From: a virus
Strand: one strand, 5' to 3'
DNA: 64,000 nucleotides
IMG/VR virus record: IMGVR_UViG_3300027863_001119
Location: 1 to 64,000 of that record
Shown here: positions 11,607-28,747 of the stretch, in pieces
Position numbering within the stretch: the stretch's first letter is position 1
Layout: the number at the start of each line of letters is the position of its first letter
The notes under the pieces: model-generated
What the model saw: the letters and a program-made list of their open reading frames with translations, nothing else
What the model was told of the DNA's origin: nothing
Databases searched by the model: none
Program-made: the position numbers and the translations under genes

Positions 11607-11685
11607 TAAGTGTAACTATATATATTATGTACTTTAATACTATTTTGTAAACAATTAAAATTTATATAAAAAGGAGTAAGTGAAA

Positions 11686-13160: not shown

Positions 13161-13198
13161 TACAACAAAAAAAGTTTGAAAAAACTTTTTTTGTTGTA
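13161..13198. promoter_or_regulatory. Perfect 17-bp inverted repeat with GAAA loop (terminator or operator) overlapping a possible sigma70 promoter for the LRR array
   Basis: tacaacaaaaaaagttt-gaaa-aaactttttttgttgta. TTGAAA at 13176 and TATATT at 13200 (18-nt spacer). Confidence 0.55.
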
Positions 13199-13240
13199 TT
13201 ATATTAGTCATTATTGATTTTTTTAAGAGAAAATAATATA

Positions 13241-13387
13241 ATGGAAAAAAAATGCCCTATCATATTTATTTCTTGCAAACCCAATAGAATAAAAAAAATT
13301 CAAAACACACCATCATCCAAACCTCCAAAAAAACTAAATATAATTTTAAACAAAATAAAAATAGAAGGAAAAGCATATGTTAAATAA
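13241..13387 (+). CDS. 48-aa degenerate zero-repeat LRR-array leader unit (N-cap remnant fused to C-cap)
   Basis: MEKKCPIIFISCKPNRIKKIQNTPSSKPPKKLNIILNKIKIEGKAYVK*. Ends in the same stop/ATG overlap as the array genes. Confidence 0.5.
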   Translation: MEKKCPIIFISCKPNRIKKIQNTPSSKPPKKLNIILNKIKIEGKAYVK

Positions 13388-14015
13388 ACTAAGTTTTGAT
13401 AACATATTTATTCCACGTAAAATAGATGAAATAGAAGAAAAAGAAAGAGCAAAAATTCAAAAACTTCTACAACAAGAAATTATAGAAGGAGATTTAGATT
13501 TACAAGGAATTAATTGGATTGAAGATTTAGGAAATGTTAAAGAAGTAAGAGGTAATGTATATTTACAAAACTCTTCCATTAAAAGTTTAGGAAATCTTGA
13601 GAGAGTTGAAGGAGATTTAAGTTTAGAAAACACCCCTATTCAATCTTTAGGAAATCTCAAATATGTTGGAGAAGATTTATATTTACAAGATACTTCTATT
13701 CAATCATTAGGAAGTCTTAAACAAGTGGAGGGAAGTTTATACTTACAAAACTCTCAAATCCAATCATTAGGAAATCTTGAACATGTAAGATGGAACTTAG
13801 ATTTATATAATACCTCTATTCAATCTTTAGGAAATCTTCAATATGTTGGAAGATGGTTAGACTTAAGAAACACTCCTATTCAATCATTAGGAAATCTTTG
13901 TTATGTTGGAAAAGACTTATACTTACGAAATACTCCTTTATCTAAACTTCCAAAAGAAGAATTGGATGAAATTTTAAGCGGAATAGAAATAAAAGGAGAA
14001 ATATATATTGAATAA
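13377..14015 (+). CDS. LRR array gene 1 (212 aa, 8 repeats)
   Basis: N-cap MLNKLSFDNIFIPRK, 20-aa xxLxLxNTPIQSLGNLxxV repeats, C-cap PLSKLPKEEL. Confidence 0.9.
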   Translation: MLNKLSFDNIFIPRKIDEIEEKERAKIQKLLQQEIIEGDLDLQGINWIEDLGNVKEVRGNVYLQNSSIKSLGNLERVEGDLSLENTPIQSLGNLKYVGEDLYLQDTSIQSLGSLKQVEGSLYLQNSQIQSLGNLEHVRWNLDLYNTSIQSLGNLQYVGRWLDLRNTPIQSLGNLCYVGKDLYLRNTPLSKLPKEELDEILSGIEIKGEIYIE

Positions 14016-14823
14016 ATCAAACTTTAACAACATATTTATTCCACGTAAGATAGATGAAATAGAAGAAAAAGAAAAAACGAAAATTCAAAAACTTCTTCAA
14101 CAAGAAGTCATAGAAGGAGATTTAGATTTACATGGAATTGATTGGATTGAAGATTTAGGGAATATTAGAGAAGTAAGAGGGGATTTATACTTATATGATT
14201 CTTCCATTAAAAGTTTAGGAAAACTTGAAAAAGTTAATGGAGGTTTATATTCACACAATACTCCTATTCAATCATTAGGAAATCTTTGTTATGTCAGGAA
14301 AAATCTATGGTTAGAAAACTCTCAAATCCAATCATTAGGAGACCTCGAATATGTTGGACAGTCTTTAGATTTACGTAATACTTCTATTCAGTCTTTAGGA
14401 AAACTTGAGTATGTAGGGGGGAATTTAGATTTAAAAAACTCTCAAATTCAATCCTTAGGAGACCTCGAATATGTCGGTGAGAGTTTATTAGCAGCAAACT
14501 CTCAAATCCAATCTTTAGGAAATCTTGAAAGAGTTGGCAAAGATTTATGGTTAGAAAACACTCCTATTCAATCATTAGGAAATCTTCGTTATGTTGGAGA
14601 AGATTTAGATTTATCGAATACTCTCATTCAATCACTAGAAAATCTTTGTTATGTTGGTAGCTATTTAGATTTACGCAATACTCCTATTCAATCATTAGGA
14701 AATCTCGAGTATGTCAGAGGATGGTTAGACTTACGAAATACCCCATTATCAAAACTTTCAAAAGAAGAACTAAATAAAATTTTAAGTAAAATAGAAATCA
14801 GAGGAGAAGTATATGTTGAATAA
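14008..14823 (+). CDS. LRR array gene 2 (271 aa, 11 repeats; TTG start)
   Basis: The usual ATG is mutated to ATA. The next codon TTG has AGGAG 9 nt upstream. Confidence 0.85.
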   Translation: MNKSNFNNIFIPRKIDEIEEKEKTKIQKLLQQEVIEGDLDLHGIDWIEDLGNIREVRGDLYLYDSSIKSLGKLEKVNGGLYSHNTPIQSLGNLCYVRKNLWLENSQIQSLGDLEYVGQSLDLRNTSIQSLGKLEYVGGNLDLKNSQIQSLGDLEYVGESLLAANSQIQSLGNLERVGKDLWLENTPIQSLGNLRYVGEDLDLSNTLIQSLENLCYVGSYLDLRNTPIQSLGNLEYVRGWLDLRNTPLSKLSKEELNKILSKIEIRGEVYVE

Positions 14824-15391
14824 ACTAAGTTTTGATAATATATTCATTCCACGTAAAATAGATGAAATAGAAGAAAAAGAAAAAACGAGAATTCAAAAGA
14901 TTCTTCAACAAGAAATCATAGAAGGAGATTTAGATTTATATGGAATTAATTGGATTGAAGATTTAGGAAATGTTAAAGAAGTAAGAGGCAGTTTAGATTT
15001 ACACGATTCTTCTATTAAAAGTTTAGGAAATCTTGAAAGGGTTGGAGGTGATTTATGGTTAGAAAATACTCTCGTTCAATCATTAGGAAATCTTCGTTAT
15101 GTTGGAGGGAGTTTAGATTTACGTAATACTTCTATTCAATCATTAGGGAATCTTAAATATGTAGGAGGTCATTTTGATTTACACAATTCTCAAATCCAAT
15201 CATTAGGAAATCTTCGTTATGTTGGAAGCAGTTTATGGTTGAATAATACTCCTATTCAATCATTAGGAAATCTCGAATATGTTGGAAGGAGATTATACTT
15301 ACAAAATACTCCATTATCTAAACTTCCAAAAAAAGAACTAAATAAAATTTTAAGTAAGATAGAAATTGGACAAGAAGTACATGTTAGATAA
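14813..15391 (+). CDS. LRR array gene 3 (192 aa, 7 repeats)
   Basis: Same cap/repeat architecture, 11-nt overlap with previous gene. Confidence 0.9.
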   Translation: MLNKLSFDNIFIPRKIDEIEEKEKTRIQKILQQEIIEGDLDLYGINWIEDLGNVKEVRGSLDLHDSSIKSLGNLERVGGDLWLENTLVQSLGNLRYVGGSLDLRNTSIQSLGNLKYVGGHFDLHNSQIQSLGNLRYVGSSLWLNNTPIQSLGNLEYVGRRLYLQNTPLSKLPKKELNKILSKIEIGQEVHVR

Positions 15392-15959
15392 ACTAAGTTT
15401 TGATAACATATTTATTCCACGTAAACTTGATGAAATAGAAGAAAAAGAAAAAACGAGAATTCAAAAGATTCTTCAACAAGAAATCATAGAAGGAGATTTA
15501 GATTTACGTGGAATTAACTGGATCGAAGATTTAGGAAATATTAGAGAAGTAAAAGGAGATTTATACTTAAATGATTCTTCCATTAAAAGTTTAGGAAATC
15601 TTGAAAAGGTCGAAGGCAGTTTATGGTTAGAAAACACTTCTATTCAATCATTAGGAAATCTTCGTTATGTTGGAGGCAGTTTATGGTTACAAAATACTCC
15701 TATTCAATCATTAGGAAATCTTAAATATGTAGGGCGGAGTTTATACTTACAAAATACTCCTATTCAATCATTAGGAAATCTTGAATATGTTGGAGGTTAT
15801 TTATATTTACAAAATACTCCAATTCAATCATTAGGAAATCTTGAGTATGTTAGAAAAGACTTATACTTACAAAATACTCCTTTATCAAAACTTCCAAAAG
15901 AAGAACTAAATAAAATTTTAAGTAAGATAGAAATTAGAAGAAAAGTATATGTTAAATAA
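15381..15959 (+). CDS. LRR array gene 4 (192 aa, 7 repeats)
   Basis: Start reassigned to conserved ATG 15381 (MLDKLSF). Confidence 0.9.
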   Translation: MLDKLSFDNIFIPRKLDEIEEKEKTRIQKILQQEIIEGDLDLRGINWIEDLGNIREVKGDLYLNDSSIKSLGNLEKVEGSLWLENTSIQSLGNLRYVGGSLWLQNTPIQSLGNLKYVGRSLYLQNTPIQSLGNLEYVGGYLYLQNTPIQSLGNLEYVRKDLYLQNTPLSKLPKEELNKILSKIEIRRKVYVK

Positions 15960-16707
15960 ACTAAGTTTTAACAACATATTCATTCCACGTAAACTTGATG
16001 AAATAGAAGAAAAAGAAAAAACGAGAATTCAAAAGATTCTTCAACAAGAAGTCATAGAAGGAGATTTAGATTTACGCGGAATTAACTGGATCGAAGATTT
16101 AGGAAATGTTAAAGAAGTAAGAGGTAATGTATATTTACAAAACTCTTCCATTAAAAGTTTAGGAAATCTTAAACAAGTTAACGGAGATTTATGGTTAGAA
16201 AACACTCCCATTCAATCATTAGGAAATCTTGAACGAGTTGAAGGTAGTTTAGATTTAGAAAACACTTTTATTCAATCATTAGAAAATCTCGAATATGTTG
16301 GAGGTTATTTAAATTTACGTAACACTTCTATTCAATCATTAGGAAATCTTTATTATATTAGAGGATGGTTAGATTTACGAAACTCTCAAATTCAATCATT
16401 AGGAAATCTTGAACATGTAGGACGTAGTTTATACTTACAAAATACTCCTATTCAATCATTAAGAAATCTTGAGTATATTGGCGAAAGTTTATTTGCATCA
16501 AACACTCCTATTCAATCATTAGGAAATCTTCATTATGTAGGGTGGAATTTAGATTTACAAAACTCTCAAATTCAATCTTTAGGTGATCTTCATTATGTTG
16601 GAAAAAACTTATACTTGCAAAATACCTCATTATCAGAACTTCCAGAAGAAGAATTAAATAGAATCTTAAGTAAGATAGAAATTAGAGGAAAAGTATATGT
16701 TAGATAA
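15949..16707 (+). CDS. LRR array gene 5 (252 aa, 10 repeats)
   Basis: Same architecture. Confidence 0.9.
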   Translation: MLNKLSFNNIFIPRKLDEIEEKEKTRIQKILQQEVIEGDLDLRGINWIEDLGNVKEVRGNVYLQNSSIKSLGNLKQVNGDLWLENTPIQSLGNLERVEGSLDLENTFIQSLENLEYVGGYLNLRNTSIQSLGNLYYIRGWLDLRNSQIQSLGNLEHVGRSLYLQNTPIQSLRNLEYIGESLFASNTPIQSLGNLHYVGWNLDLQNSQIQSLGDLHYVGKNLYLQNTSLSELPEEELNRILSKIEIRGKVYVR

Positions 16708-17395
16708 ACTAAGTTTTGATAACATATTTATTCCACGTAAGATAGATGAAATAGAAGAAAAAGAAAAAATGAGAATTCAAAAACTTCTACGGCCAGAAGT
16801 CGTAGAAGGGGACTTAGATTTACACGAAATTAACTGTATTGAAGATTTAGGAAACATTAGAGAAGTAAAAGGCAATGTATATTTACAAAACTCTTCCATT
16901 AAAAGTTTAGGGAAGCTTGAAAGAGTTGATGGAGATTTATGGTTATACAGTATTCAAATCCAATCTTTAGGAAATCTTCAATATGTGGGACAGTCTTTAT
17001 ATTTACTCAATGTTCCTATTCAGTCATTAGGAAATCTTCAATATGTTGGTGGTTATTTAGATTTACATAATTCTCAAATCCAATCATTAGGAAATCTTTG
17101 TCATGTTGGGGAAGGTTTATGGTTAAAAAACTCTCAAATTCAATCATTAGGAAATCTTAAGTACGTTGGACAGTCTTTAGATTTACAAAACACTCCTATT
17201 CAATCATTAGGAAATCTTCAACACGTTGGAAGATGGCTAGACTTAAGAAACACTCCTATTCAATCTTTAGGAAATCTTCGTTATGTTGGAAAAGACTTAT
17301 ACTTACGAAATACTCCTTTATCAAAACTTCCAGAAGAAGAACTAAATAAAATTTTAAGTAAGATAGAAATCGAAGGAGAAGTATATGTTAAATAA
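16697..17395 (+). CDS. LRR array gene 6 (232 aa, 9 repeats)
   Basis: Same architecture. Confidence 0.9.
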   Translation: MLDKLSFDNIFIPRKIDEIEEKEKMRIQKLLRPEVVEGDLDLHEINCIEDLGNIREVKGNVYLQNSSIKSLGKLERVDGDLWLYSIQIQSLGNLQYVGQSLYLLNVPIQSLGNLQYVGGYLDLHNSQIQSLGNLCHVGEGLWLKNSQIQSLGNLKYVGQSLDLQNTPIQSLGNLQHVGRWLDLRNTPIQSLGNLRYVGKDLYLRNTPLSKLPEEELNKILSKIEIEGEVYVK

Positions 17396-18260
17396 ACCAA
17401 GCTTTAACAACATATTTATCCCTCGTAGAATAGATGAAATAGAAGAAAGAGAAAAAAAGAAAATTCGAAAACTTCTGCAACAAGAAATCATAGAAGGATG
17501 GTTAGATTTATCTAGAATTGACTGGATCGAAGATTTAGGAAACGTTAGAGAAGTAAGAGGTAATTTATACTTACAAGACTCTTCTATTAAACGTTTAGGA
17601 AAGCTTGAAAGAGTAGATGGAGATTTACGCTTAGAAAACTCTCCTATTCAATCATTAGGAAATCTTGAAAGAGTAGATGGAAATTTACATTTAGAAAATT
17701 CTCAAATTCAATCATTAGGAAATCTTGAAAGAGTAGATGGAAATTTACATTTAGAAAATTCTCAAATTCAATCATTAGGAAATCTTAAATATGTAGAGGG
17801 AAGTTTAGATTTAGCAAACACCCCCATTCAATCATTAGGAAATCTTGAACGAGTTGACAGAGATTTATGGTTAGACCATACTTCCATTCAATCCTTGGGA
17901 AATCTTCGTTATGTTGGTGGTTATTTAGATTTACACGATACCCCTATTCAATCATTAGGAAATCTTGAACAAGTTGACGAAGACTTACAGTTAGAAAATT
18001 CTCAAATTCAATCATTAGGAAATCTTCGTTATGTAGGACAATCTTTAGATTTACACAACACTCCTATTCAATCATTAGGAAATCTCCAACAAGTAGGAGG
18101 GAATTTAGATTTACAAAACTCTCAAATTCAATCTTTAGGAAAACTTGAGTATGTTAGAGGATGGATAGACTTAAGAGATACTCCATTATCAAAACTTCCA
18201 AAAGAAGAATTAAATAGAATTTTAAGTAAGATAGAAATAGAAGAGGGGATATATGTATAA
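17385..18260 (+). CDS. LRR array gene 7 (291 aa, 12 repeats)
   Basis: Same architecture, with an exact 60-bp tandem duplication. Confidence 0.9.
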   Translation: MLNKPSFNNIFIPRRIDEIEEREKKKIRKLLQQEIIEGWLDLSRIDWIEDLGNVREVRGNLYLQDSSIKRLGKLERVDGDLRLENSPIQSLGNLERVDGNLHLENSQIQSLGNLERVDGNLHLENSQIQSLGNLKYVEGSLDLANTPIQSLGNLERVDRDLWLDHTSIQSLGNLRYVGGYLDLHDTPIQSLGNLEQVDEDLQLENSQIQSLGNLRYVGQSLDLHNTPIQSLGNLQQVGGNLDLQNSQIQSLGKLEYVRGWIDLRDTPLSKLPKEELNRILSKIEIEEGIYV

Positions 18261-18828
18261 ACTAAGTTTTAACGACATATTTATTCCACGTAGAATAGAT
18301 GAAATAGAAGAAAAAGAAAAAACGAGAATTCAAAAGATTCTTCAACAAGAAGTTGTAGAAGGAAGTTTAGATTTACCCGGAATTAACTGGATCGAAGATT
18401 TAGGAAATATTAGAGAAGTAAGAGGTAATTTATACTTACAAAACTCTTCTATTAAAAGTTTAGGAAAACTAGAGTATGTTGAAAAAAGTTTATGGTTATA
18501 CAATTCTCAAATTCAATCTTTAGGGAATCTTAAAAAAGTTAATGGGGATTTATGGTTATACAATACTCCTATTCAATCATTAGGAAATCTTGAACGAGTT
18601 AATGGGAATCTATGGTTAGACAATTCTCAAATCCAATCATTGGGAAATCTTCAACACGTAGGAGAGAGTTTAGATTTAGAAAACACTCCTATTCAATCAT
18701 TGGGAAAACTTAAGTATGTTGGAGCATGTTTATACTTAAGAAATACTCCATTATCAAAACTTCCAAGAAAAGAACTAAATATAATTTTAAACAAAATAGA
18801 AATTGGTGGAGAAGTATATGTTAGATAA
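18253..18828 (+). CDS. LRR array gene 8 (191 aa, 7 repeats)
   Basis: Same architecture. Junction is shortened by one codon (8-nt overlap). Confidence 0.9.
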   Translation: MYKLSFNDIFIPRRIDEIEEKEKTRIQKILQQEVVEGSLDLPGINWIEDLGNIREVRGNLYLQNSSIKSLGKLEYVEKSLWLYNSQIQSLGNLKKVNGDLWLYNTPIQSLGNLERVNGNLWLDNSQIQSLGNLQHVGESLDLENTPIQSLGKLKYVGACLYLRNTPLSKLPRKELNIILNKIEIGGEVYVR

Positions 18829-19576
18829 ACTAAGCTTTAATGGTATATTCATTCCACGTAAAATAGATGAAATAGAAGAAAAAGAAAAAACGAGAATTCA
18901 AAAACTTCTACAACAAGAAATCATAGAAGGAGATTTAGATTTACAAGGGATTAATCAGATCGAAGATTTAGGAAATGTTAGAGAAGTAAGAGGGAATTTA
19001 GATTTACGAAACTCTTCCATTAAAAGTTTAGAAAATCTTGAGTATATTGGTGAAAGTTTATTAGCCTCAAACACTCCTATTCAATCATTAGGAAATCTTC
19101 GTTATGTTGGAGAAGATTTAAATTTACGCAACACTCCTATTCAATCATTAGAAAAACTTGAACGAGTTGAAGGTAATTTAGATTTAGAAAGCACTCCTAT
19201 TCAATCATTAGGGAATCTTCGTTATGTTGGTGGTTATTTAGATTTACACAACACTCCTATTCAATCATTAGGAAATCTCGAATATGTAGGATCGTGGTTA
19301 GATTTACAAAAAGCTTCTATTCAATCCTTAGGAAATCTTCATTATGTTAGAGGATGGTTAGACCTAAGAGATACTCCTATTCAATCATTAGGAAATCTTG
19401 AACGTATTGGAGAATGGTTAAGTTTACGTAATACTTCTATTCAATCTTTAGGAAATCTTCGTTATGTTGGAAAAGACTTATACTTACGAAACACATCTTT
19501 ATCAAAACTTCCAGAAGAAGAATTAAATAGAATCTTAAGTAAGATAGAAATCGGAGGAGAAGTATATGTTGAATAA
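18818..19576 (+). CDS. LRR array gene 9 (252 aa, 10 repeats)
   Basis: Start reassigned to conserved ATG 18818. Confidence 0.9.
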   Translation: MLDKLSFNGIFIPRKIDEIEEKEKTRIQKLLQQEIIEGDLDLQGINQIEDLGNVREVRGNLDLRNSSIKSLENLEYIGESLLASNTPIQSLGNLRYVGEDLNLRNTPIQSLEKLERVEGNLDLESTPIQSLGNLRYVGGYLDLHNTPIQSLGNLEYVGSWLDLQKASIQSLGNLHYVRGWLDLRDTPIQSLGNLERIGEWLSLRNTSIQSLGNLRYVGKDLYLRNTSLSKLPEEELNRILSKIEIGGEVYVE

Positions 19577-21012: not shown

Positions 21013-21820
21013 ACTAAGTTTTAATAACATATTTATTCCTCGTAAGATAGATGAAATAGAAGAAAAAGAAAAAACGAGAATTCAACAGATTCTTCAACAA
21101 GAAATCATAGAAGGAGATTTAGATTTACGTAGAATTGACTGGATTGAAGATTTAGGAAATATTAGAGAAGTAAGAGGGAATTTAAATTTAAGTGATTCCC
21201 CCATTAAAAGTTTAAGAAATCTTGAAAGAGTAGATGGAAATTTACATTTAGAAAATTCTCAAATCCAATCATTAGGAAATCTTGAATATGTTGGAAGAAA
21301 TTTATGGATATATAACACTCCTATTCGATCATTAGAAAACCTTGAAAGAGTAGAAGGAGATTTACGTTTAGAAAATTCTCAAATTCAATCATTAGGAAAT
21401 CTTCGTTATGTTGAAGATTATTTAAATTTATATAACACTCCTATTCAATCATTAGGAAATCTTCAATACGTTGGAAAGAGTTTAGATTTAGAAAACACTC
21501 CTATTCAATCTTTAGGAAATCTTCAATATGTTGGAGAAGATTTATATTTACAAAATACTTCTATTCAATCATTAGGAAATCTTGAATATGTCGGAGGTTA
21601 TTTAGATTTACGAAACTCTCAAATCCGATTATTAGGAAATCTTCAACATGTTGGAGGTTATTTAGATTTACACGATTCTCAAATTCAATCTTTAGGAAAA
21701 CTTAAGTATGTCAGAGGATGGATAGACTTAAGAAATACTCCATTATCTAAACTTCCAAAAGAAGAACTAAACAAAATTTTAAGTAAGATAGAAATCGAAG
21801 GAGAAGTATATGTTAAATAA
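21002..21820 (+). CDS. LRR array gene 12 (272 aa, 11 repeats)
   Basis: Start reassigned to conserved ATG 21002. Confidence 0.9.
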   Translation: MLNKLSFNNIFIPRKIDEIEEKEKTRIQQILQQEIIEGDLDLRRIDWIEDLGNIREVRGNLNLSDSPIKSLRNLERVDGNLHLENSQIQSLGNLEYVGRNLWIYNTPIRSLENLERVEGDLRLENSQIQSLGNLRYVEDYLNLYNTPIQSLGNLQYVGKSLDLENTPIQSLGNLQYVGEDLYLQNTSIQSLGNLEYVGGYLDLRNSQIRLLGNLQHVGGYLDLHDSQIQSLGKLKYVRGWIDLRNTPLSKLPKEELNKILSKIEIEGEVYVK

Positions 21821-22583
21821 ACTAAGTTTTGACAACATATTTATTCCACGCAAGATAGATGAAATAGAAGAAAAAGAAAAAATGAGAATTCAAAGACTTT
21901 TACAACAAGAAGTCGTAGAAGGAGACTTAGATTTACATGGAATTAATTGGATTGAAGATTTAGGAAATATTAGAGAAGTAAGAGGAGATTTAGATTTACA
22001 CGGAATTAATTGGATCGAAGATTTAGGAAATATTAGAGAAGTAAGAGGCCATTTATACTTACATGGTTCTTCCATCAAAAGTTTAGGAAAGCTTAAGTAT
22101 GTTGGAAACAGTTTATGGTTACAAAATACCCCTATTCAATCATTAGGAAATCTTGAAAAAGTTGGAGGCAGTTTACGGTTAGAAAACATTCCCATTCAAT
22201 CATTAGGAAATCTTAAATATGTAGGGTGGAGTTTATACTTACAAAACTCTCAAATCCAATCATTAGGAAACCTTGAATATGTTGGAGCAGACTTACATTT
22301 ACAAAACACTCCTATTCAGTCATTAGGAAATCTTCAACATGTAGGAGGAAATTTATGGTTATCCAACACTCCTATTCAATCACTAGGAAATCTTAAACAT
22401 GTAGGAGGAAGTTTAGGTTTATCAGACACTTCCATCCAATCTTTAGGAAATCTTCGTTATGTTGGAAAAAACTTATACTTACAAAACACACTTTTATCTA
22501 AACTTTCGAAAGAAGAACTAAACAAAATTTTAAGTAAAATAGAAATCGGAAAAAGAGTATATGTCAAACAAACTAAGTTTTGA
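21810..22583 (+). CDS. LRR array gene 13 (257 aa; duplicated 21-aa first repeat, 4-aa C-terminal extension)
   Basis: GDLDLHGINWIEDLGNIREVR occurs twice. TAA>CAA at the junction extends the ORF to the next TGA. Confidence 0.9.
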   Translation: MLNKLSFDNIFIPRKIDEIEEKEKMRIQRLLQQEVVEGDLDLHGINWIEDLGNIREVRGDLDLHGINWIEDLGNIREVRGHLYLHGSSIKSLGKLKYVGNSLWLQNTPIQSLGNLEKVGGSLRLENIPIQSLGNLKYVGWSLYLQNSQIQSLGNLEYVGADLHLQNTPIQSLGNLQHVGGNLWLSNTPIQSLGNLKHVGGSLGLSDTSIQSLGNLRYVGKNLYLQNTLLSKLSKEELNKILSKIEIGKRVYVKQTKF

Positions 22584-23091
22584 TAACATATTTATTCCAC
22601 GTAAGATAGATAAAATAGAAGAAAAAGAAAGAATGAGAATTCAAAAGATTCTACAACAAAAAGTCGTAGAAGGAGATTTAGATTTACATGGAATTAATTG
22701 GATTGAAGATTTAGGAAATATTAAAGAAGTAAAAGGAGATTTATACTTACAAAACTCTTCTATTAAAAGTTTAGGAAATCTTGAATATGTTGAGGCAGAC
22801 TTAAATTTACAAAATACTCCTATTCAATCGTTAGGAAATCTTCGCCACGTTGGAGGAGATTTAGATTTACGCAATACTCCTATTCAATCATTAGGAAATC
22901 TTGAATATGTAGGATGGGATTTATTCTTACGCAATACTCCTATTCAATCATTAGGAAATCTTAAGTATGTAGGATGGGATTTATTCTTACAAAACACTCC
23001 TTTATCAAGACTTCCAAAAGAAGAACTAAATATAATTTTAAACAAAATAAAAATTGGAGGAAAAGCATATGTCAAACAAGCTAAGTTTTAA
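22561..23091 (+). CDS. LRR array gene 14 (176 aa, 6 repeats)
   Basis: Same architecture, TAA>CAA extension. Confidence 0.9.
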   Translation: MSNKLSFDNIFIPRKIDKIEEKERMRIQKILQQKVVEGDLDLHGINWIEDLGNIKEVKGDLYLQNSSIKSLGNLEYVEADLNLQNTPIQSLGNLRHVGGDLDLRNTPIQSLGNLEYVGWDLFLRNTPIQSLGNLKYVGWDLFLQNTPLSRLPKEELNIILNKIKIGGKAYVKQAKF

Positions 23092-24820
23092 CAACATATT
23101 TATTCCACGCAAAACAGATGAAATATTAGAAAAAGAAAGAGTAAGAGCTCAAAAACTTTTACAACAAGAAGTTGTAGAAGGAGACTTAAATTTACAAGAA
23201 ACTAATCAGATTGAAGATTTAGGAAATGTTAAAGAAGTAAGAGGTAATGTATATTTACAACACTCTTCTATTCAATCTTTAGGAAATCTTGAAAAAGTCG
23301 AAGGTAGTTTATGGTTACACTATACTTCTATTGAATCATTAGGAAATCTTAAATATATTGGAGGAAATTTATACGCAGAGGATACCCCTATTCAATCATT
23401 AGGAAATCTTGAATATGCTGGAGGAAATTTAGATTTACGTGAAACCTCCATTCAATCTTTAGGAAATCTTAAAGAGGTTTACGGAGATTTATGGTTATCC
23501 GACACTCCTATTCAATCATTAGGAAGACTTGAAAGAGTTGAAGGCAGTTTAAGTTTACAAAGCACCCAAATTCAATCCTTAGGAAATCTTGAATATGTTG
23601 GAGGAAATTTAGATTTATCCGACACTCCTATTCAGTCATTAGGAAATCTCAATTATGTTGGAAAAAACTTATACTTACAAGACACGCCTTTATCCGAACT
23701 TCCAGAAGAAGAACTAAATAAAATTTTAAGTAAAGTAAAAGTAGAAGGAGAAACATATGTACATAAGTTAAACAAACTAAAATTTAACAACCTGCTTATT
23801 ATTCCACAAATAATAGATGGAATAGAAGAAAGAGAAAGAGTTCAAAAACTTTTACAACAAGAAGTTATAGAAGAAGATTTAGATTTACGTGGAATTAACT
23901 GGATTGAAGATTTAGGAAACATTAGAGAAGTAAAAGGTGATGCATATTTACGAAACTCTTCTATTAAAAGTTTAGGAAATCTTCGTTATGTTGGTGGTCA
24001 TTTAGATTTACGTAACACTCCTATTCAATCATTAGGAAACCTTGAGCATATTGGTAAAAGTTTATTAGCATCAAACTCTCAAATTCAATCGTTAGGAAAC
24101 CTTGAACGAATAGAATGGGATTTAGATTTACATAACACTCCTATTCAATCATTAGGAAATCTTGAACGCGTTGGATTAGGCTTAAATTTACAAAACACTC
24201 CTATCCCATCATTAGGAAATCTTCGTTATGTTGGAGGTTATTTAGATTTATATAACACTCCTATTCAATCATTAGAAAATCTTGAGTATATTGGTGGAAG
24301 TTTATATGTAGCAAACACTCAAATTCAATCGTTAGGAAATTTTAAACATATAAAGGGTAGCTTAAATTTATCAAATACTCCTATTCAATCATTAGGAAAT
24401 CTTGAGAGAGTAGAAGAAGATTTATGGTTAGAAAACACTTCTATTCAATCTTTAGGAAATCTTCGTTATGTTGGGAGAGATTTAGATTTACGTAAAACTT
24501 CTATTCAATCATTAGGAAATCTTGAACGAGTTGACAGAGATTTAAATTTACAAAACACTCCTATTCAATCATTAGGAAATCTTGAACGTGTTGGTGGTTA
24601 TTTGAATTTATCAAACACTCCTATTCAATCTTTAGGAAACCTCAAATATGTAGAATGGAATTTATACTTACAAAACTCTCAAATTCAATCATTAGGAAAT
24701 CTTCGTTATGTTGGAGGAGCTTTATACTTAAAAAATACTCCATTATCTAAACTTCCAAGAGAAGAACTAAATAAAATTTTAAGTAAGATAAGAATTAGTA
24801 GAGGAGTATATGTCGAATAA
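23069..24820 (+). CDS. LRR array gene 15: in-frame fusion of two units (9 + 15 repeats, 583 aa)
   Basis: Internal C-cap followed by a second N-cap (ETYVHKLNKLKFNN). Conserved ATG at 23069. Confidence 0.88.
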   Translation: MSNKLSFNNIFIPRKTDEILEKERVRAQKLLQQEVVEGDLNLQETNQIEDLGNVKEVRGNVYLQHSSIQSLGNLEKVEGSLWLHYTSIESLGNLKYIGGNLYAEDTPIQSLGNLEYAGGNLDLRETSIQSLGNLKEVYGDLWLSDTPIQSLGRLERVEGSLSLQSTQIQSLGNLEYVGGNLDLSDTPIQSLGNLNYVGKNLYLQDTPLSELPEEELNKILSKVKVEGETYVHKLNKLKFNNLLIIPQIIDGIEERERVQKLLQQEVIEEDLDLRGINWIEDLGNIREVKGDAYLRNSSIKSLGNLRYVGGHLDLRNTPIQSLGNLEHIGKSLLASNSQIQSLGNLERIEWDLDLHNTPIQSLGNLERVGLGLNLQNTPIPSLGNLRYVGGYLDLYNTPIQSLENLEYIGGSLYVANTQIQSLGNFKHIKGSLNLSNTPIQSLGNLERVEEDLWLENTSIQSLGNLRYVGRDLDLRKTSIQSLGNLERVDRDLNLQNTPIQSLGNLERVGGYLNLSNTPIQSLGNLKYVEWNLYLQNSQIQSLGNLRYVGGALYLKNTPLSKLPREELNKILSKIRISRGVYVE

Positions 24821-25268
24821 ACTAAGCTTTAACAATATATTTATTCCACGTAGAATAGATGAAATAGAAGAAAAAGAAAAAAAGAAAATTCAAAAGATTC
24901 TTCAACAAGAAATCATAGAAGGAGATTTAGATTTACAAAGAATTAATTGGATTGAAGATTTAGGAAATATTAAAGAAGTAAAAGGATATTTATACTTATA
25001 CAATTCTTCTATCAAAAGCTTAGGAAATCTTGAAAGAGTAGAAGGTAGTTTAGATTTAGAAAGTACTCCTATTCAATCTTTAGGAAATCTTCATTATGTT
25101 GGAGGTTATTTATATTTACAAAATACTCCAATTCAATCATTAGGAAATCTTGAGTATGTTAGAAAAGACTTATACTTACAAAATACTCCTTTATCAAAAC
25201 TTCCAAAAAAAGAACTAAATAAAATTTTAAGTAAGATAGAAATTGGTGGAGGGGTATATGTTAAATAA
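24810..25268 (+). CDS. LRR array gene 16 (152 aa, 5 repeats; mosaic of genes 20 and 4)
   Basis: Same architecture, with identical DNA blocks shared with two other genes. Confidence 0.9.
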   Translation: MSNKLSFNNIFIPRRIDEIEEKEKKKIQKILQQEIIEGDLDLQRINWIEDLGNIKEVKGYLYLYNSSIKSLGNLERVEGSLDLESTPIQSLGNLHYVGGYLYLQNTPIQSLGNLEYVRKDLYLQNTPLSKLPKKELNKILSKIEIGGGVYVK

Positions 25269-26076
25269 ACTAAACTTCAACAACATATTTATTCCACGTA
25301 AACTTGATGAAATAGAAGAAAAGGAAAAAACGAGAATTCAAAAACTTCTACAACAAGAAGTAATAGAAGGAGACTTAGATTTACATGGAATTGACTGGAT
25401 CGAAGATTTAGGAAATATTAGAGAAGTAAGAGGAGATTTATACTTATATGATTCTTCTATTCAATCTTTAGGAAAACTCGAACGAGTTGAAGGTAGTTTA
25501 GATTTAGAAAACACTCTTATTCAATCCTTAGGAAATCTCAAATACATTGGAGAAAATTTATGGTCAGAAAAAACACCTATTCAATCATTAGGAAATCTTG
25601 AACGAGTTGAAGGTAGTTTAGATTTAGAAAACACTCCTATTCAATCATTAGGAAAACTTGAAAAAGTTGAAGGTAGTTTAGATTTAGAAAACACTCCTAT
25701 TCAATCATTAGGAAATCTTCGTTATGTTGGCGGTTATTTAGATTTACACAACACTCAAATCCAATCATTAGGAAATCTTGAATATGTTGGATCAGACTTA
25801 AATTTACAAAACTCTCCAATTCAATCTTTAGGAAAACTTAAGCGTGTTAGAGGACGGTTAGACTTAAGAAATACACCTATTCAATCATTAGAAAATCTTG
25901 AACGAGTAGGATGGGATTTAGATTTACGTAATACCCCTATTCAATCCTTAGGAAATCTCAAACGAGTAGGATGGGATTTATTCTTACAAAATACTCCTTT
26001 ATCAAAACTTTCAGAAGAAGAATTAAATAGAATCTTAAGTAGGATAAGAATCATAGGAAAAGTACATGTTAAATAA
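25258..26076 (+). CDS. LRR array gene 17 (272 aa, 11 repeats)
   Basis: Start reassigned to conserved ATG 25258. Confidence 0.9.
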   Translation: MLNKLNFNNIFIPRKLDEIEEKEKTRIQKLLQQEVIEGDLDLHGIDWIEDLGNIREVRGDLYLYDSSIQSLGKLERVEGSLDLENTLIQSLGNLKYIGENLWSEKTPIQSLGNLERVEGSLDLENTPIQSLGKLEKVEGSLDLENTPIQSLGNLRYVGGYLDLHNTQIQSLGNLEYVGSDLNLQNSPIQSLGKLKRVRGRLDLRNTPIQSLENLERVGWDLDLRNTPIQSLGNLKRVGWDLFLQNTPLSKLSEEELNRILSRIRIIGKVHVK

Positions 26077-26716
26077 ACTAAACTTTAACAACATATTCAT
26101 TCCACGTAAGGTAGATGAAATAGAAGAAAAAGAAAAAATGAGAATTCAAAAGATTCTTCAACAAGAAGTTATAGAAGGAGATTTAGATTTACATGGAATT
26201 AACTATATCGAAGATTTAGGAAATATTAGAGAAGTAAAAGGTAATGTATATTTACAAAACTCTTCTATTAAAAGTTTAGAAAAACTTGAGTATGTTGAGG
26301 GTTGTTTAGATTTACACAATACTCTTATTCAATCATTAGGAAATCTTGAGTATATTGGCGAAAGTTTATTCTCATCAAATACTCCTATTCAATCATTAGG
26401 AAATCTTGAATATGTGGGAGGGAGTTTAGATTTAGAAAACACCCCTATTCAATCATTAGGAAATCTTGAATATGTAGGAGGAAATTTATGGTTGCATAAT
26501 ACTCCTATTCAATCCTTAGGAAATCTTTGTTATGTTGAGGGTTATTTAGATTTGTCAAACACTCCTATTCAATCCTTGAGAAACCTTAAATATGTAAAGG
26601 AAAGCTTATACTTGCAAAATACCCCTTTATCAAAACTTCCAAAAAAAGAACTAAATATAATTTTAAACAAAATAGAAATTGAAGGAAAAGCATATGTTAA
26701 ACAAACTAAACTTTAA
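26066..26716 (+). CDS. LRR array gene 18 (216 aa, 8 repeats)
   Basis: Same architecture, TAA>CAA extension. Confidence 0.9.
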   Translation: MLNKLNFNNIFIPRKVDEIEEKEKMRIQKILQQEVIEGDLDLHGINYIEDLGNIREVKGNVYLQNSSIKSLEKLEYVEGCLDLHNTLIQSLGNLEYIGESLFSSNTPIQSLGNLEYVGGSLDLENTPIQSLGNLEYVGGNLWLHNTPIQSLGNLCYVEGYLDLSNTPIQSLRNLKYVKESLYLQNTPLSKLPKKELNIILNKIEIEGKAYVKQTKL

Positions 26717-27452
26717 CAACATATTTATTCCACGCAAGATAGATGAAATAGAAGAAAAAGAAAAAATGAGAATTCAAAAACTTCTACAATCAGAAGTCGT
26801 AGAAGGAAGTTTAGATTTACAAGGAATTGACTGGATCGAAGATTTAGGAAACGTTAGAGAAGTAAAAGGTAGTGTATATTTACAAAACTCTTCTATTAAA
26901 AGTTTAGGAAATCTTCGTTATATTGGTGAAAGTTTATTAGTAGCAAACACTCCTATTCAATCTTTAGGAAATCTTCAATATGTTGATGGAGATTTATATT
27001 TATACGATACTTCTATTCAATCTTTAGGAAAACTTGAACGAGCAGGGCAGTCTTTATACTTATCCAATACTCCCATTCAATCATTAGGAAATCTTTGTTA
27101 TGTTGGGGAAGACTTAGATTTACGTAACACTCCTATTCAATCATTAGGAAATCTTGAACGAGTTGAAGGTAGTTTAGATTTAGAAAACACTCCTATTCAA
27201 TCATTAGGAAATCTTAAGTATGTTGGAAATTATTTAAATTTATCAAACACTCCTATTCAATCTTTAGGAAATCTTGAACAAGTAGGATGGAGTTTAAATT
27301 TAGAAAACTCTCAAATCCAATCTTTAGGAAAACTTGAGTATGTTGGAGGAGATTTATTCTTACAAAACACTCCGTTATCTAAACTTCCGAGAGAAGAACG
27401 AAATAAAATTTTAAGTAAGATAGAAATAAGAGAGGAAGTACATGTTAAATAA
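26694..27452 (+). CDS. LRR array gene 19 (252 aa, 10 repeats)
   Basis: Start reassigned to conserved ATG 26694. Confidence 0.9.
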   Translation: MLNKLNFNNIFIPRKIDEIEEKEKMRIQKLLQSEVVEGSLDLQGIDWIEDLGNVREVKGSVYLQNSSIKSLGNLRYIGESLLVANTPIQSLGNLQYVDGDLYLYDTSIQSLGKLERAGQSLYLSNTPIQSLGNLCYVGEDLDLRNTPIQSLGNLERVEGSLDLENTPIQSLGNLKYVGNYLNLSNTPIQSLGNLEQVGWSLNLENSQIQSLGKLEYVGGDLFLQNTPLSKLPREERNKILSKIEIREEVHVK

Positions 27453-28020
27453 ACTAAACTTTAACAACATATTTATTCCACGTAAACTTAATGAAATAGA
27501 AGAAAAGGAAAAAACGAAAATTCAAAAACTTCTACAACAAGAAATCATAGAAGGAGATTTAGATTTACGTGGAATTAACTGGATTGAAGATTTAGGAAAT
27601 ATTAAAGAAGTAAAAGGATATTTATACTTATACAATTCTTCTATCAAAAGCTTAGGAAATCTTGAAAGAGTAGAAGGTAGTTTAGATTTAGAAAGTACTC
27701 CTATTCAATCTTTAGGAAATCTTCATTATGTTGGAGGTAGTTTATGGTTGCAAAATACTCCTATTCAATCATTAGGTAATCTTAAAAGAGTCGAAGGAAG
27801 TTTAAACTTACGTGATACCTTTATTCAATCTTTAGGAAATCTTGAATATGTAGGATGGGATTTATTCTTACGCGATACCCCCATTCAATCCTTAGGAAAC
27901 CTTGAATATGTAGGATGGGATTTATTCTTACAAAACACTCCTTTATCAAAACTTTCGGAAGAAGAACTAAATAAAATTTTAAGTAAAGTAGAAATCAGAG
28001 GAAGAGTATATGTTGAATAA
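27442..28020 (+). CDS. LRR array gene 20 (192 aa, 7 repeats)
   Basis: Same architecture. Confidence 0.9.
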   Translation: MLNKLNFNNIFIPRKLNEIEEKEKTKIQKLLQQEIIEGDLDLRGINWIEDLGNIKEVKGYLYLYNSSIKSLGNLERVEGSLDLESTPIQSLGNLHYVGGSLWLQNTPIQSLGNLKRVEGSLNLRDTFIQSLGNLEYVGWDLFLRDTPIQSLGNLEYVGWDLFLQNTPLSKLSEEELNKILSKVEIRGRVYVE

Positions 28021-28039
28021 ACTAAGCTTTAACAACTAA
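28010..28039 (+). pseudogene. Truncated N-cap stub of a further LRR unit (MLNKLSFNN*)
   Basis: ATG TTG AAT AAA CTA AGC TTT AAC AAC TAA in the standard overlap position. Homology stops here. Confidence 0.75.
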
Positions 28040-28741: not shown

Positions 28742-28747
28742 ACTAGT

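What the first reader, a model, noticed from the sequence alone, without database searches (positions are those of the whole stretch)
13241..28039. A 20-gene hypervariable LRR repertoire in a phage tail module (VLR-like combinatorial binder array)
Seen: 20 consecutive intact genes (21 units, about 190 repeats by my count). Each has a constant ~37-aa N-cap, a 21-aa first repeat, a variable number of 20-aa repeats (5-15 in total) and a constant C-cap. The framework NTPIQSLGNL is nearly invariant. Positions around the xxLxLxx strand and LxxVx vary widely and are rich in Y/W/D/E/R/H. No unit has a frameshift or internal stop. Known: in LRR solenoids the xxLxLxx strand forms the concave ligand-binding face, and lamprey VLRs and plant NLRs diversify these positions. 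Inference: the phage keeps a library of binders, perhaps against host defence proteins, receptors or competing elements, and diversifies it by recombination. I do not know of a described phage system of this form, but I cannot search to confirm novelty.
Basis: partly seen in the sequence, partly recalled or inferred. Interest (0 to 1): 0.93.

Follow-up and report, generated by a model that had tools for sequence, protein, structure and literature searches.

The report
Tandem LRR binder genes in phage
A large uncultured hot-spring phage carries 21 back-to-back copies of a small leucine-rich-repeat protein gene in which one surface differs from copy to copy, most likely a hard-wired panel of binding proteins for its conflict with hosts, although the targets are unknown.

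Summary
Window 13377-28020 carries 20 intact, translationally coupled + strand genes. They make 21 units (one gene is a two-unit fusion) and 170 exact 20-residue repeats, between the tail sheath gene and a candidate tube gene of a 133-kb IMG/VR phage record from hot springs.

Each unit has a conserved N-cap, 4-14 repeats and a conserved C-cap. Seven repeat positions (8, 9, 11, 12, 13, 15, 17) are hypervariable and enriched in Trp, Tyr, Arg and His. The other half of the repeat is conserved even at synonymous sites.

The fold is a three-sided LRR beta-solenoid. Its only solved relative is Vibrio FlrP.

Units are mosaic: U17 is U21 on the 5' side and U04 on the 3' side. Truncated units sit at both array ends, and there is no reverse transcriptase. 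This points to ordinary unequal homologous recombination, not VLR-like assembly.

Positive selection is not shown (omega 0.5-2.4, depending on method).

Smaller arrays of the same family (2-11 genes) recur in 8 other phage loci, mostly outside structural modules. Long relatives include ART-bearing polyvalent proteins.

Best reading: a cytoplasmic binder family for host takeover or counter-defence. Virion display is the main rival.

This scan had already noted similar LRR arrays in other jumbo phages (e1-5855445, e1-5991916).

The parts
11680..13134 (+). tail sheath gene (upstream neighbour)
   Evidence: phrog_2839 tail sheath, E 1.9e-26. tblastn to annotated sheath proteins of Mycobacterium phages at 26% identity.
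13161..13198 (+). terminator-like hairpin after the sheath gene (17-bp perfect stem, T-rich tail); a promoter-like site follows at 13214-13242
   Evidence: Consensus scans only; function not shown.
13241..13387 (+). 48-aa leader ORF whose last ~20 residues are a degenerate C-cap (relic of a truncated unit); overlaps the U01 start by 11 nt
13377..14015 (+). U01, 212 aa, 7 repeats
14008..14823 (+). U02, 271 aa, 10 repeats; TTG start (the usual ATG position reads ATA)
14813..15391 (+). U03, 192 aa, 6 repeats
15381..15959 (+). U04, 192 aa, 6 repeats; 3' donor-like partner of mosaic U17
15949..16707 (+). U05, 252 aa, 9 repeats
16697..17395 (+). U06, 232 aa, 8 repeats
17385..18260 (+). U07, 291 aa, 11 repeats
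18253..18828 (+). U08, 191 aa, 6 repeats
18818..19576 (+). U09, 252 aa, 9 repeats
19566..20384 (+). U10, 272 aa, 10 repeats; the unit that was folded
20374..21012 (+). U11, 212 aa, 7 repeats
21002..21820 (+). U12, 272 aa, 10 repeats
21810..22583 (+). U13, 257 aa, 8 repeats, with a 21-aa (63-nt) internal duplication at the N-cap/first-repeat boundary; 29-aa C-cap
22561..23091 (+). U14, 176 aa, 5 repeats; 29-aa C-cap
23069..24820 (+). U15a+U16b, one 583-aa gene made of two units (8 and 14 repeats). At the junction the downstream start frame is closed and the upstream frame reads through.
24810..25268 (+). U17, 152 aa, 4 repeats. Mosaic: nt 139-297 identical to U21, nt 286-399 identical to U04.
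25258..26076 (+). U18, 272 aa, 10 repeats
26066..26716 (+). U19, 216 aa, 7 repeats; 29-aa C-cap
26694..27452 (+). U20, 252 aa, 9 repeats
27442..28020 (+). U21, 192 aa, 6 repeats; 5' donor-like partner of mosaic U17
28010..28039 (+). stump of a 22nd unit: first 9 N-cap codons, then a stop
28244..29560 (+). two genes of unknown function (165 and 270 aa) between the array and the candidate tube gene
   Evidence: No hit in Pfam, PHROGs, NCBIfam or PADLOC.
29646..30086 (+). candidate tail tube / virion structural protein (downstream neighbour)
   Evidence: phrog_985, E 3.1e-7. 'Tube' is my inference from its size and its place after the sheath gene.

Best explanation
The array is a germline multigene family of small, soluble, cytoplasmic LRR beta-solenoid proteins made by the phage as one translationally coupled operon.

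Each protein has two halves around the solenoid:
- a rigid, conserved half: the N-T-P-I-Q-S-L-G-N-L part of the repeat plus the N- and C-caps;
- a copy-specific half (repeat positions 8-17) studded with Trp, Tyr, Arg, His and acidic residues.

I read the proteins as a panel of binders that the phage uses inside the infected cell against variable host, or rival-element, proteins. That would mean host takeover or neutralising defence proteins, with each unit covering a different target or allele.

The array grows, shrinks and reshuffles by ordinary homologous recombination. Substrates are the 30-nt conserved framework and the conserved caps: unequal crossing-over changes unit and repeat number, and gene conversion makes mosaics. 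The phage's own RecA may help.

Shown: anatomy, fold class, selection for intact ORFs, mosaicism, recurrence in other phages.
Inferred: binding function, cytoplasmic site of action, conflict role, the role of RecA.
For: Anatomy
- 21 units; 14 of 19 gene junctions overlap by 11 nt, with a GGAG-type RBS inside the upstream C-cap.
- The N-terminus has no hydrophobic stretch (by eye; no predictor run).
- The fold is confident (pLDDT 92.8). Residues 1-14 are disordered, a helix spans 16-31, and each repeat has three short strands.
- All top fold matches are LRR proteins. The best is FlrP 8z5u_0: Z 17.1, rmsd 2.6 A over 173 residues, and also the only PDB sequence hit, E 9.8e-9.

Variable surface
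- Entropy peaks at positions 8, 9, 11, 12, 13, 15 and 17.
- Against the phage's other proteins these positions are enriched in W 4.4x, R 2.9x, Y 2.8x and H 2.6x, while L, A and F are each under 1%.
- The array in L012 is likewise most variable at 13, 15 and 17, plus 18, 20 and 11.

Selection
- Caps have omega 0.29 and 0.40. Framework codons have 0.19-0.32.
- About 92 stops would be expected under neutrality; none is seen.

Recombination
- U17 is a mosaic of U21 and U04.
- The nearest neighbour by 5' block and by 3' block agrees for only 2 of 20 units (Mantel r 0.19, p 0.14). Sequence distance does not track array distance.
- Truncated units lie at both ends, and there is a two-unit fusion.
- Framework codons are conserved at synonymous sites: L7 is CTT in 132 of 149 repeats, while L4 and L14 are TTA in 145 and 147 of 149.
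- RecA and SbcCD-like genes are present in the genome.

Accessory rather than structural role
- Arrays or clusters of the family occur in 8 other loci: L011, L012, L013, L018, L019, L020, L022, L023.
- In L020 the cluster lies among small genes of unknown function. In L012 it lies between a sigma factor gene and the head genes.
- The only hit in isolated phages, Edwardsiella phage Edno5, is a single gene between the CI repressor and exo/RecT. By my own comparison with lambda, that is an early-operon position.
- Of 30 long relatives, 2 carry ART-PolyVal, and 1 each carries DUF5661, DUF6496 and PcfJ. ART-PolyVal is named by Pfam as a domain of polyvalent proteins; linking the other three to injected conflict proteins is recalled (PMC5512222, passages).
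- ESM Atlas look-alike clusters are 97-100% viral in 7 of the 8 rows shown and 50% in one.
- Only 6 loci were found among genomes of 185,579 species.
Against: - No target, expression data or protein data exist. No RNA run was available.
- In this phage the array sits inside the tail gene block, on the same strand, right after the sheath gene. That is where a structural or late gene would be expected.
- 3 of 30 long relatives match phrog_8745, 'tail fiber protein', over or next to their LRR part.
- In Goslar, LRR/beta-helix domains are proposed host-recognition parts of virion fibres (10.64898/2026.04.21.720040, passages).
- The nearest solved relative, FlrP, is a structural spacer on a tube-like rod, not an inhibitor.
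- Omega above 1 is not shown. ML gives 0.49 and 0.95 at variable codons, so relaxed constraint cannot be excluded.
- The invariant, exposed half of the repeat and the conserved, disordered N-terminal peptide (P13 invariant, R14 and R15 nearly so, across three array lineages) suggest a common partner that I cannot name.
- The polyvalent-protein paper itself never mentions LRRs (0 occurrences).
Confidence: 0.45

Rival explanations
1. Virion-displayed adhesins. The LRR proteins dock through their conserved N-terminal peptide and invariant face onto the tail or capsid. They present their variable faces outward, giving a mixed coat of receptor- or glycan-binding modules that widens or modulates adsorption.
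For: - The array lies between the sheath gene and the candidate tube gene, on the same strand as all structural genes.
- The N-terminal peptide is conserved but disordered, and one half of the repeat is invariant and exposed. That is what a shared anchor would look like.
- 3 of 30 long relatives hit phrog_8745, tail fiber protein.
- Goslar DUF7941 fibre proteins carry LRR/beta-helix domains.
- FlrP binds a tubular rod.
- A vibriophage LRR-like ORF inserted in a tail module was reported as its most variable gene (PMC10945359, passages; the authors' HHpred probability was only 10%).
Against: - Related arrays are not in structural modules.
- There is a terminator-like hairpin between the sheath gene and the array.
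- No trimerisation or known anchor domain is present.
- No PHROG family matches the units themselves (best E 0.0045).
- 21 proteins would compete for one docking site.
- Nothing shows that they are in particles.
Confidence: 0.25
2. Inter-phage or self-directed function. The binders recognise proteins of competing phages or satellites (superinfection exclusion). Alternatively they act as adaptors or chaperones for the phage's own variable proteins.
For: - This explains the hypervariable binder surface equally well.
- The Edno5 homologue sits where, in lambda, exclusion and takeover genes lie. That is my own comparison from the annotation.
Against: - There is no direct evidence.
- No PADLOC defence model matches. 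One weak row, E 0.002, hits an unrelated methyltransferase model.
- A lytic-looking 133-kb myovirus gains less from exclusion than a prophage does.
Confidence: 0.1
3. Assembly artefact or neutral accordion. The array overstates copy number because population variants of one or a few genes were strung together. Alternatively it is a recent, functionless amplification.
For: - The array is broken into pieces of 339 nt or less in Logan contigs, and no contig spans it. Order and exact unit boundaries are therefore unverified.
- Low-depth alternative joints exist, most with short sides of 20-21 letters.
Against: - Unique array pieces have the depth of the single-copy flanks in two runs: X1 168-190 against 156 and 173; X2 58-84 against 70 and 72. 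The units therefore co-exist once per genome.
- Units differ by 17-19% even in the caps, and the longest exact match between units has a median of 35.5 nt.
- All 4941 codons are open, against about 92 expected stops.
- An independent 10-gene array exists in L012.
Confidence: 0.05
4. Programmed diversification. The array is a donor or acceptor set for a dedicated mechanism: VLR-like copy-choice assembly, a diversity-generating retroelement, or site-specific shuffling.
For: - The layout is modular: cap, first repeats, a variable number of middle repeats, end repeat, cap.
- Mosaics exist.
Against: - All units are complete genes.
- No reverse transcriptase, deaminase or invertase family appears among the Pfam hits for ORFs of 100 aa or more across the 133 kb. 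The record is estimated 74% complete.
- No template/variable repeat pair was seen.
- No inverted repeats flank the array apart from the terminator hairpin.
- The breakpoint in U17 lies in ordinary shared sequence.
Confidence: 0.03

Closest known systems
Vibrio FlrP (PDB 8Z5U chain 0; bioRxiv 10.64898/2025.12.04.692373, passages read)
   Same: It is the only solved protein found by sequence (E 9.8e-9) and the best fold match (Z 17.1, rmsd 2.6 A, 173 of 180 residues, 25% identity). It is a small, single-domain beta-solenoid LRR with short repeats.
   Different: FlrP has a Sec signal peptide and is a periplasmic, single-copy structural spacer on the flagellar rod. The phage units have no signal peptide, have their own N- and C-caps, and come as 21 diversified paralogues.
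LRR and other repeat-protein multigene families of large eukaryotic DNA viruses (entomopoxvirus AMV LRR family; Klosneuvirus, Catovirus and Mimivirus LRR proteins)
   Same: These are virus-encoded families of many small LRR paralogues, and they appear as structural neighbours in BFVD. Repeat-protein gene number grows with genome size in giant viruses (PMC5753266; search listing and start of abstract only).
   Different: They differ in LRR subtype (15-23% identity, TM 0.2-0.5) and in having eukaryotic hosts. As far as I saw, they are not a single translationally coupled head-to-tail operon.
Flavobacterium psychrophilum array of 16-23 consecutive LRR ORFs in about 21 kb (PMC8400371, passages read)
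   Same: It is a tandem array of about 20 LRR genes of variable repeat and gene number in a prokaryotic genome. Copy number differs between strains.
   Different: Those proteins are described as cell-surface proteins of a bacterium, and the authors propose a virulence role. The phage units gave no Pfam LRR_5 hit and no cellular relatives: none in the first genome scan and 6 loci in the second. Homology to the F. psychrophilum genes was not tested directly.
Lamprey variable lymphocyte receptors (features recalled, no paper read)
   Same: LRR solenoid binders with N-cap, first repeat, a variable number of middle repeats, end repeat and C-cap. Diversity sits on the strand face.
   Different: VLRs are assembled somatically from incomplete cassettes into one acceptor gene with cytidine deaminases. 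Here all 21 units are complete, separately translated germline genes, and no deaminase was found.
Polyvalent proteins of phages and conjugative elements (PMC5512222, passages read)
   Same: Some long relatives combine this LRR type with ART-PolyVal (2 of 30), and with DUF5661, DUF6496 and PcfJ (1 each). It is a conflict-related context.
   Different: The window's units are single-domain proteins, not multidomain polyvalent proteins. The paper does not mention LRRs.
Goslar DUF7941 fibre proteins with LRR/beta-helix domains (bioRxiv 10.64898/2026.04.21.720040, passages read)
   Same: A large phage uses paralogous proteins that share a common module and carry LRR-like domains. They are proposed to act in host recognition.
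   Different: The anchor module there is DUF7941. No such domain was found here (Pfam), and the proteins are much larger.

Membership tests
Leucine-rich repeat (LRR) solenoid superfamily | tandem repeats of 20-30 residues with a Leu-rich conserved segment and an Asn ladder | tested here: met
   170 repeats of exactly 20 aa. L4, L7, L14 and L16 are 93-100% Leu, and N18 is 125/149. The motif L-x-L-x-N-T-x-I-x-S-L departs from the canonical LxxLxLxxN, as quoted.
Leucine-rich repeat (LRR) solenoid superfamily | solenoid fold with one turn per repeat and a parallel beta-sheet | tested here: met
   AF2 model with pLDDT 92.8 and regular strands every 20 residues. In VIA-align, 49 of the 50 top entries appear to be LRR proteins by my reading of their titles, Z 11.9-17.1. 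All of the top Foldseek hits are LRR proteins. This rests on a predicted model only.
Leucine-rich repeat (LRR) solenoid superfamily | match to curated LRR sequence models | tested here: inconclusive
   Pfam Recep_L_domain is above its cut-off (28-68 bits against 21.8). LRR_EndoS is above its cut-off in 2 of the 3 units tested. LRR_1, LRR_4, LRR_5 and LRR_8 were not listed. NCBIfam gave nothing.
Lamprey VLR-type combinatorial receptor system | incomplete germline acceptor gene completed from flanking partial cassettes | tested here: not met
   Every unit has its own RBS, start, caps and stop. The only partial units are the two end relics.
Lamprey VLR-type combinatorial receptor system | AID/APOBEC-type cytidine deaminase driving assembly | tested here: not met
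   No deaminase family appears among the Pfam hits for 41 + 67 proteins covering the 133-kb record. The record is about 74% complete.
Diversity-generating retroelement (DGR) | reverse transcriptase with a template repeat and an adenine-mutated variable repeat | tested here: not met
   No RT family was found. Variation is spread over 149 repeats and is not tied to one template.
BspA / LRR_5-type secreted surface LRR arrays (e.g. F. psychrophilum) | LRR_5 (PF13306) repeats plus an export signal or surface anchor | tested here: not met
   PF13306 is not among the Pfam hits. The N-terminus is charged and helical, without a hydrophobic stretch. No signal-peptide predictor was available.
Polyvalent proteins (Iyer et al. 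2017) | 2-15 effector domains in one polypeptide | tested here: not met
   The units are single LRR domains, and the fusion gene holds two LRR domains only. Only some long relatives are polyvalent-like.
Phage tail fibre / receptor-binding proteins | virion attachment domain and presence in particles | not testable with these tools
   No PHROG tail family matches the units. 3 of 30 long relatives hit phrog_8745. Proteomics is needed.

The most novel reading that the evidence does not exclude
Large phages keep a heritable, recombining repertoire of LRR 'receptors'. It would be a viral counterpart of plant NLR or animal TLR gene clusters, working in the opposite direction. Each unit recognises a different allele of a host defence or surface protein. 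The conserved N-terminal peptide and invariant face plug every unit into one common phage machine, either packaging and injection with the DNA or display on the tail. Array content would then set which host strains the phage can overcome, and it would turn over between closely related phages.
Probability: 0.2. Interest if true: 0.85.

Novelty: new variant of a known kind. Interest (0 to 1): 0.6.

Why it matters
Tandem, recombining LRR gene clusters are the classic architecture of host immune receptors, and repeat-protein multigene families are known host-range factors of large eukaryotic viruses.

Here the same architecture appears in a tailed phage: 21 units in this genome, 10 or more in another, and 2-4 in several more. 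The LRR subtype looks almost virus-restricted and is absent from PHROGs. This points to an unstudied class of phage accessory proteins that probably bind variable partners.

If the partners are host defence or receptor proteins, array content would be a readable marker of phage-host specificity.

The units are also natural, small, cysteine-poor binder scaffolds. They come from hot springs and so may be heat-stable (not tested). Their variable face is already mapped.

Tried and rejected
- DGR or VLR-like mechanisms: rejected. No RT or deaminase was found.
- Rfam on the whole window: no family.
- PADLOC and NCBIfam on the units and the two downstream genes: nothing except one weak, unrelated PADLOC row, E 0.002.
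- PHROGs on the units, even at E 0.01: no meaningful family.
- Searches for close relatives with single units or N-cap patterns found nothing in viral contigs and nothing in the first genome scan.
- Host assignment from RecA failed. The best named hits, at 57-65% identity, are spread over Clostridium, Bacteroidales, Deltaproteobacteria and Ignavibacteria.
- No RNA holder was listed among the sequencing runs, so expression could not be examined.
- The Logan contigs cannot confirm unit order.
- Selection tests were inconclusive:
  - Pooled NG86 over 11,026 repeat pairs gives dN(variable) 0.78 against dS(framework) 0.41.
  - Positional repeats give ratios of 0.93-2.39, and nearest-neighbour pairs give 0.60.
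  - ML GY94 gives omega 0.49 and 0.95 for variable codons, with saturated tree lengths of 16-32 per codon.
- Differences to the low-depth relative in run X3: 5 non-synonymous to 1 synonymous at variable codons, 10 to 8 elsewhere in the array, and 2 to 4 in the sheath gene. Only 40 of 68 differences were shown, each from a single contig, and paralogous mapping is possible. This is too weak to use.
- Complex prediction (two copies of a unit, to test head-to-tail docking of the N-terminal peptide) was not available.
- The second fold job, on the two-unit fusion protein, had not finished after eleven collecting calls. It is not used.
The variable sites were therefore mapped by DSSP register and the alternating in/out rule, not by measured solvent exposure.
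- Matsushima et al. 2021 (Arch Virol, on short LRRs of dsDNA viruses) is not held. It may describe this repeat type.

Full report
WHAT IS THERE

The window is the first 64 kb of a 133,380-bp linear IMG/VR virus record, estimated 74% complete. It has about 29% G+C throughout, and almost all genes are on the + strand.

One search lists 20 consecutive + strand ORFs from 13377 to 28020 that all encode the same kind of protein. All 41 matches to one unit in the whole record fall inside 13377-28014.

Upstream lies the tail sheath gene, 11680..13134 (phrog_2839, E 1.9e-26). Downstream come two genes of unknown function, then a virion structural protein at 29646..30086 (phrog_985, E 3.1e-7; 'tube' is my inference). 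Baseplate J follows at 47932..49335.

The rest of the record encodes:
- PolA fused to UDG
- RecA and SbcCD-like proteins
- DnaB, primase, GroEL and a class II RNR
- a sigma-70-like factor
- a 7-deazaguanine pathway
- many glycosyltransferases

No reverse transcriptase or deaminase is among them.

Two DNA runs of hot-spring metagenomes hold 73-77% of the sampled words. A third run holds 8%.

ANATOMY

I took the last in-frame ATG before the conserved F-I-P-R motif as each start.

Of the 19 gene junctions, 14 overlap by 11 nt, 2 by 8 nt and 3 by 23 nt. A GGAG-type RBS lies inside the upstream C-cap (coordinates, upstream sequences). The array is therefore a chain of translationally coupled genes.

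ORF 23054..24820 is a fusion of two units. At their junction the usual downstream start frame is closed by a stop, and the upstream frame reads through.

Each of the 21 units has:
- a 47-aa N-cap
- 4-14 repeats of exactly 20 aa, 170 in all (149 without the first, cap-like repeat)
- a 25-aa C-cap, which is 29 aa in three units

TRF finds period 60 in every unit.

The array ends inside units:
- 13241..13387 is a 48-aa ORF whose tail is a degenerate C-cap and which overlaps the U01 start.
- 28010..28039 holds the first nine N-cap codons, then a stop.

A perfect 17-bp hairpin with a T-rich tail (13161-13198) and a promoter-like site (13214-13242) separate the sheath gene from the array. These come from consensus scans only.

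CONSERVED AND VARIABLE PARTS

I number the repeat I1 Q2 S3 L4 G5 N6 L7 x8 x9 V10 x11 x12 x13 L14 x15 L16 x17 N18 T19 P20.

- Positions 8, 9, 11, 12, 13, 15 and 17 have entropies of 1.7-2.8 bits.
- Position 20 has 1.5 bits.
- The remaining positions have 0-1.0 bits.

At the seven variable positions the residues are enriched over the phage's other proteins: Trp 4.4x, Arg 2.9x, Tyr 2.8x, Gly 2.8x, His 2.6x, Glu 2.2x and Asp 1.8x. Leu, Ala and Phe are each under 1%.

The framework is conserved even at synonymous sites. L4 is TTA in 145 of 149 repeats, G5 is GGA in 143 and L14 is TTA in 147. L7, in contrast, is CTT in 132.

FOLD

AlphaFold2 on an alignment of 29 sequences gives pLDDT 92.8 for U10. 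Residues 1-14 are disordered, a capping helix spans 16-31, each repeat has short strands at positions 3, 9-10 and 14-15, and a C-cap helix closes the solenoid.

- Foldseek finds only LRR proteins, at low TM (0.37-0.47), as expected for solenoids of different curvature.
- The Foldseek-independent search puts Vibrio FlrP (8z5u_0) first: Z 17.1, rmsd 2.6 A, 173 of 180 residues.
- FlrP is also the only PDB sequence hit, E 9.8e-9.
- FlrP is a 21.5-kDa periplasmic beta-solenoid LRR. Five copies bind the flagellar rod (bioRxiv 10.64898/2025.12.04.692373, passages).

By the strand register, L14, L16, V10, L7, I1 and L4 point inward. Positions 13, 15 and 17 sit on one face, and 8, 9, 11 and 12 on the adjoining face and turn. 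The variable sites thus cover one contiguous half of the circumference, and N18 to L7 is an invariant other half.

I could not read model coordinates, so this mapping is an inference.

SELECTION

Purifying selection on the genes is clear.
- Caps have omega 0.29 and 0.40 over 190 pairs.
- Framework codons have omega 0.19-0.32.
- Keeping 4941 codons open at this divergence would otherwise be vanishingly unlikely: about 92 stops are expected at 8% divergence.

For the variable codons the answer depends on the method.
- Pooled NG86 over 11,026 repeat pairs gives dN 0.78 against a framework dS of 0.41.
- Positionally matched repeats give dN(variable)/dS(framework) of 2.19, 2.39, 1.42, 0.93 and 0.95. 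Nearest-neighbour pairs give 0.60.
- ML GY94 on fixed trees gives omega 0.49 (5' block) and 0.95 (3' block), with saturated tree lengths.

Replacement at these positions is thus several-fold faster than elsewhere and is compositionally biased towards binding-type residues. Omega above 1 is not established.

RECOMBINATION

- U17 is identical to U21 over nt 139-297 and to U04 over nt 286-399.
- The nearest neighbour by the 5' block is also nearest by the 3' block for only 2 of 20 units. U16b was left out because of indels in its N-cap.
- The two distance matrices are not significantly correlated (Mantel r 0.19, p 0.14). Neither correlates with distance along the array.

Taken with the truncated end units, the fusion, the 63-nt duplication in U13 and the repeat-number range, this fits unequal crossing-over and gene conversion on the conserved framework and caps.

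A decayed N-cap fragment also lies about 96 kb away, at record position 123763.

IS THE ASSEMBLY SOUND?

In Logan contigs of X1 and X2 the flanks are in long contigs that end at 13361 and start at 27961. The array is in about 350 pieces of 339 nt or less, of which 336 of 357 and 329 of 351 are at least 99% alike.

Unique array pieces have flank-like depth: X1 168-190 against 156 and 173; X2 58-84 against 70 and 72. The units are therefore all present about once per genome and are not population alleles of one gene. Their order rests on the original assembly alone.

The low-depth relative in X3 shows different joints, for example a 300-nt (five-repeat) skip at 16162-16463. This comes from single contigs.

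RELATIVES

- The family has 4321 representatives at E 0.001 or better, and 211 at 1e-30 or better, among 1.84 billion cluster representatives.
- A word-index search gave 297 proteins at E 0.001 or better among 987 candidates; of the 120 listed, nearly all are unnamed metagenomic proteins.
- ESM Atlas look-alike clusters are 97-100% viral in 7 of the 8 rows shown and 50% in one.
- Cellular genomes of 185,579 species gave no locus in one scan and 6 in another, several of them short MAG contigs.
- PHROGs has no family for the units.
- Among 50,697 phage records only Edwardsiella phage Edno5 matches, filed twice, at 33% identity.

Tandem clusters recur:
- L012: 10 genes plus a partial one
- L011: 3
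- L013: 4
- L018: 3
- L019: 3
- L020: 4 plus 1
- L022 and L023: 2 each

L012 has its own cap sequences but the same grammar and is most variable at 13, 15 and 17, plus 18, 20 and 11.

The N-cap grammar is shared by three array lineages: hydrophobic-P-R-R, then L-Q-Q, then G-x-L-D-L. P13 is invariant, and R14 and R15 nearly so.

Contexts differ:
- between a sigma factor gene and the head genes in L012
- among small unknown genes in L020
- between the CI repressor and exo/RecT in Edno5

Among 30 long relatives, Pfam finds ART-PolyVal in 2. It finds DUF5661, DUF6496, DUF5824, PcfJ and a PI3/PI4-kinase domain in 1 each. PHROGs finds the 'tail fiber protein' family phrog_8745 in 3.

INTERPRETATION

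The evidence best fits a germline family of soluble LRR binders that diversifies by ordinary recombination. I favour an intracellular conflict role (0.45), for three reasons: the family's position in genomes is not tied to structural modules, the isolated-phage homologue sits in an early accessory region, and some relatives are fused to effector domains of polyvalent proteins.

Virion display (0.25) remains a serious rival. The array lies in the tail block here, the invariant face and conserved N-terminal peptide look like a common docking surface, and LRR modules occur in proteins annotated as fibres.

The VLR analogy holds for module layout only.

NOVELTY

Seven full-text searches found no description of tandem LRR gene arrays in tailed phages. 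They did find:
- LRR domains in Goslar fibre proteins
- a weak LRR-like tail-module insert in a vibriophage
- a BspA-type LRR ORF in a Vibrio jumbo phage table
- the bacterial F. psychrophilum array

Matsushima et al. 2021, on short LRRs of dsDNA viruses, could not be read.

Earlier notes of this scan report similar LRR arrays in two other jumbo phages (e1-5855445, e1-5991916) and the same U17 mosaic (e1-6139403). These are unchecked AI notes. I re-derived only the mosaic.

I class the finding as a new variant of a known kind: virus repeat-protein multigene families and tandem LRR clusters that evolve by unequal recombination.

Noticed in passing
L016:19763-19905 (record position 123763-123905, outside the window): A decayed, frame-broken fragment of an LRR-unit N-cap sits alone in an intergenic region about 96 kb from the array. 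It starts M-L-S-K-L-S-F-N-N, and the Q-E-I-T-D-G-D-L-D-L part is in another frame. This suggests a former second site or a transposed copy.
   Followed up: partly
L012:2730-11014 (metagenome contig, 55 kb): A second, independent array of 10 LRR genes plus a partial one at 3-347. It has its own cap sequences and lies between a sigma-factor gene and the exonuclease, head protease and major head protein genes.
   Followed up: partly
L013:1553-3871: A 772-aa gene lies between two pairs of LRR genes. Its middle part contains a motif that I recall as SET-methyltransferase-like. This was not tested with any library.
   Followed up: no
L014:15230-19507 and L015:207-2233, 17729-18337: A 7-deazaguanine DNA-modification gene set: FolE2, QueC, QueD, a radical-SAM protein, DUF5591, an aminotransferase and a GATase. 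Earlier scan notes already cover it.
   Followed up: no
window 1523-4284: Two adjacent 456-aa paralogues with WD40/beta-propeller repeats (phrog_19311). Kelch-repeat proteins lie at 45927-46856 and L017:7032-9086. So other repeat-protein families are present in the structural region of this phage.
   Followed up: no
window 56741-62585 and L014:797-5193: A large block of glycosyltransferases (GT4, GT2) with GDP-mannose dehydratase and epimerase genes in a phage genome.
   Followed up: no
window 59200-59660: A 461-nt intergenic region with G+C-rich hairpins and direct copies of a short T-A-T-A-A-T-A-containing motif. A similar T-G-T-A-T-T-A-T-A-T-like motif recurs upstream of several genes, including the array (about 13199) and gene 28244. 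It may be a phage promoter. This was seen by eye only.
   Followed up: no
L015:3393-5996: DNA polymerase A fused to an N-terminal uracil-DNA-glycosylase-family domain.
   Followed up: no
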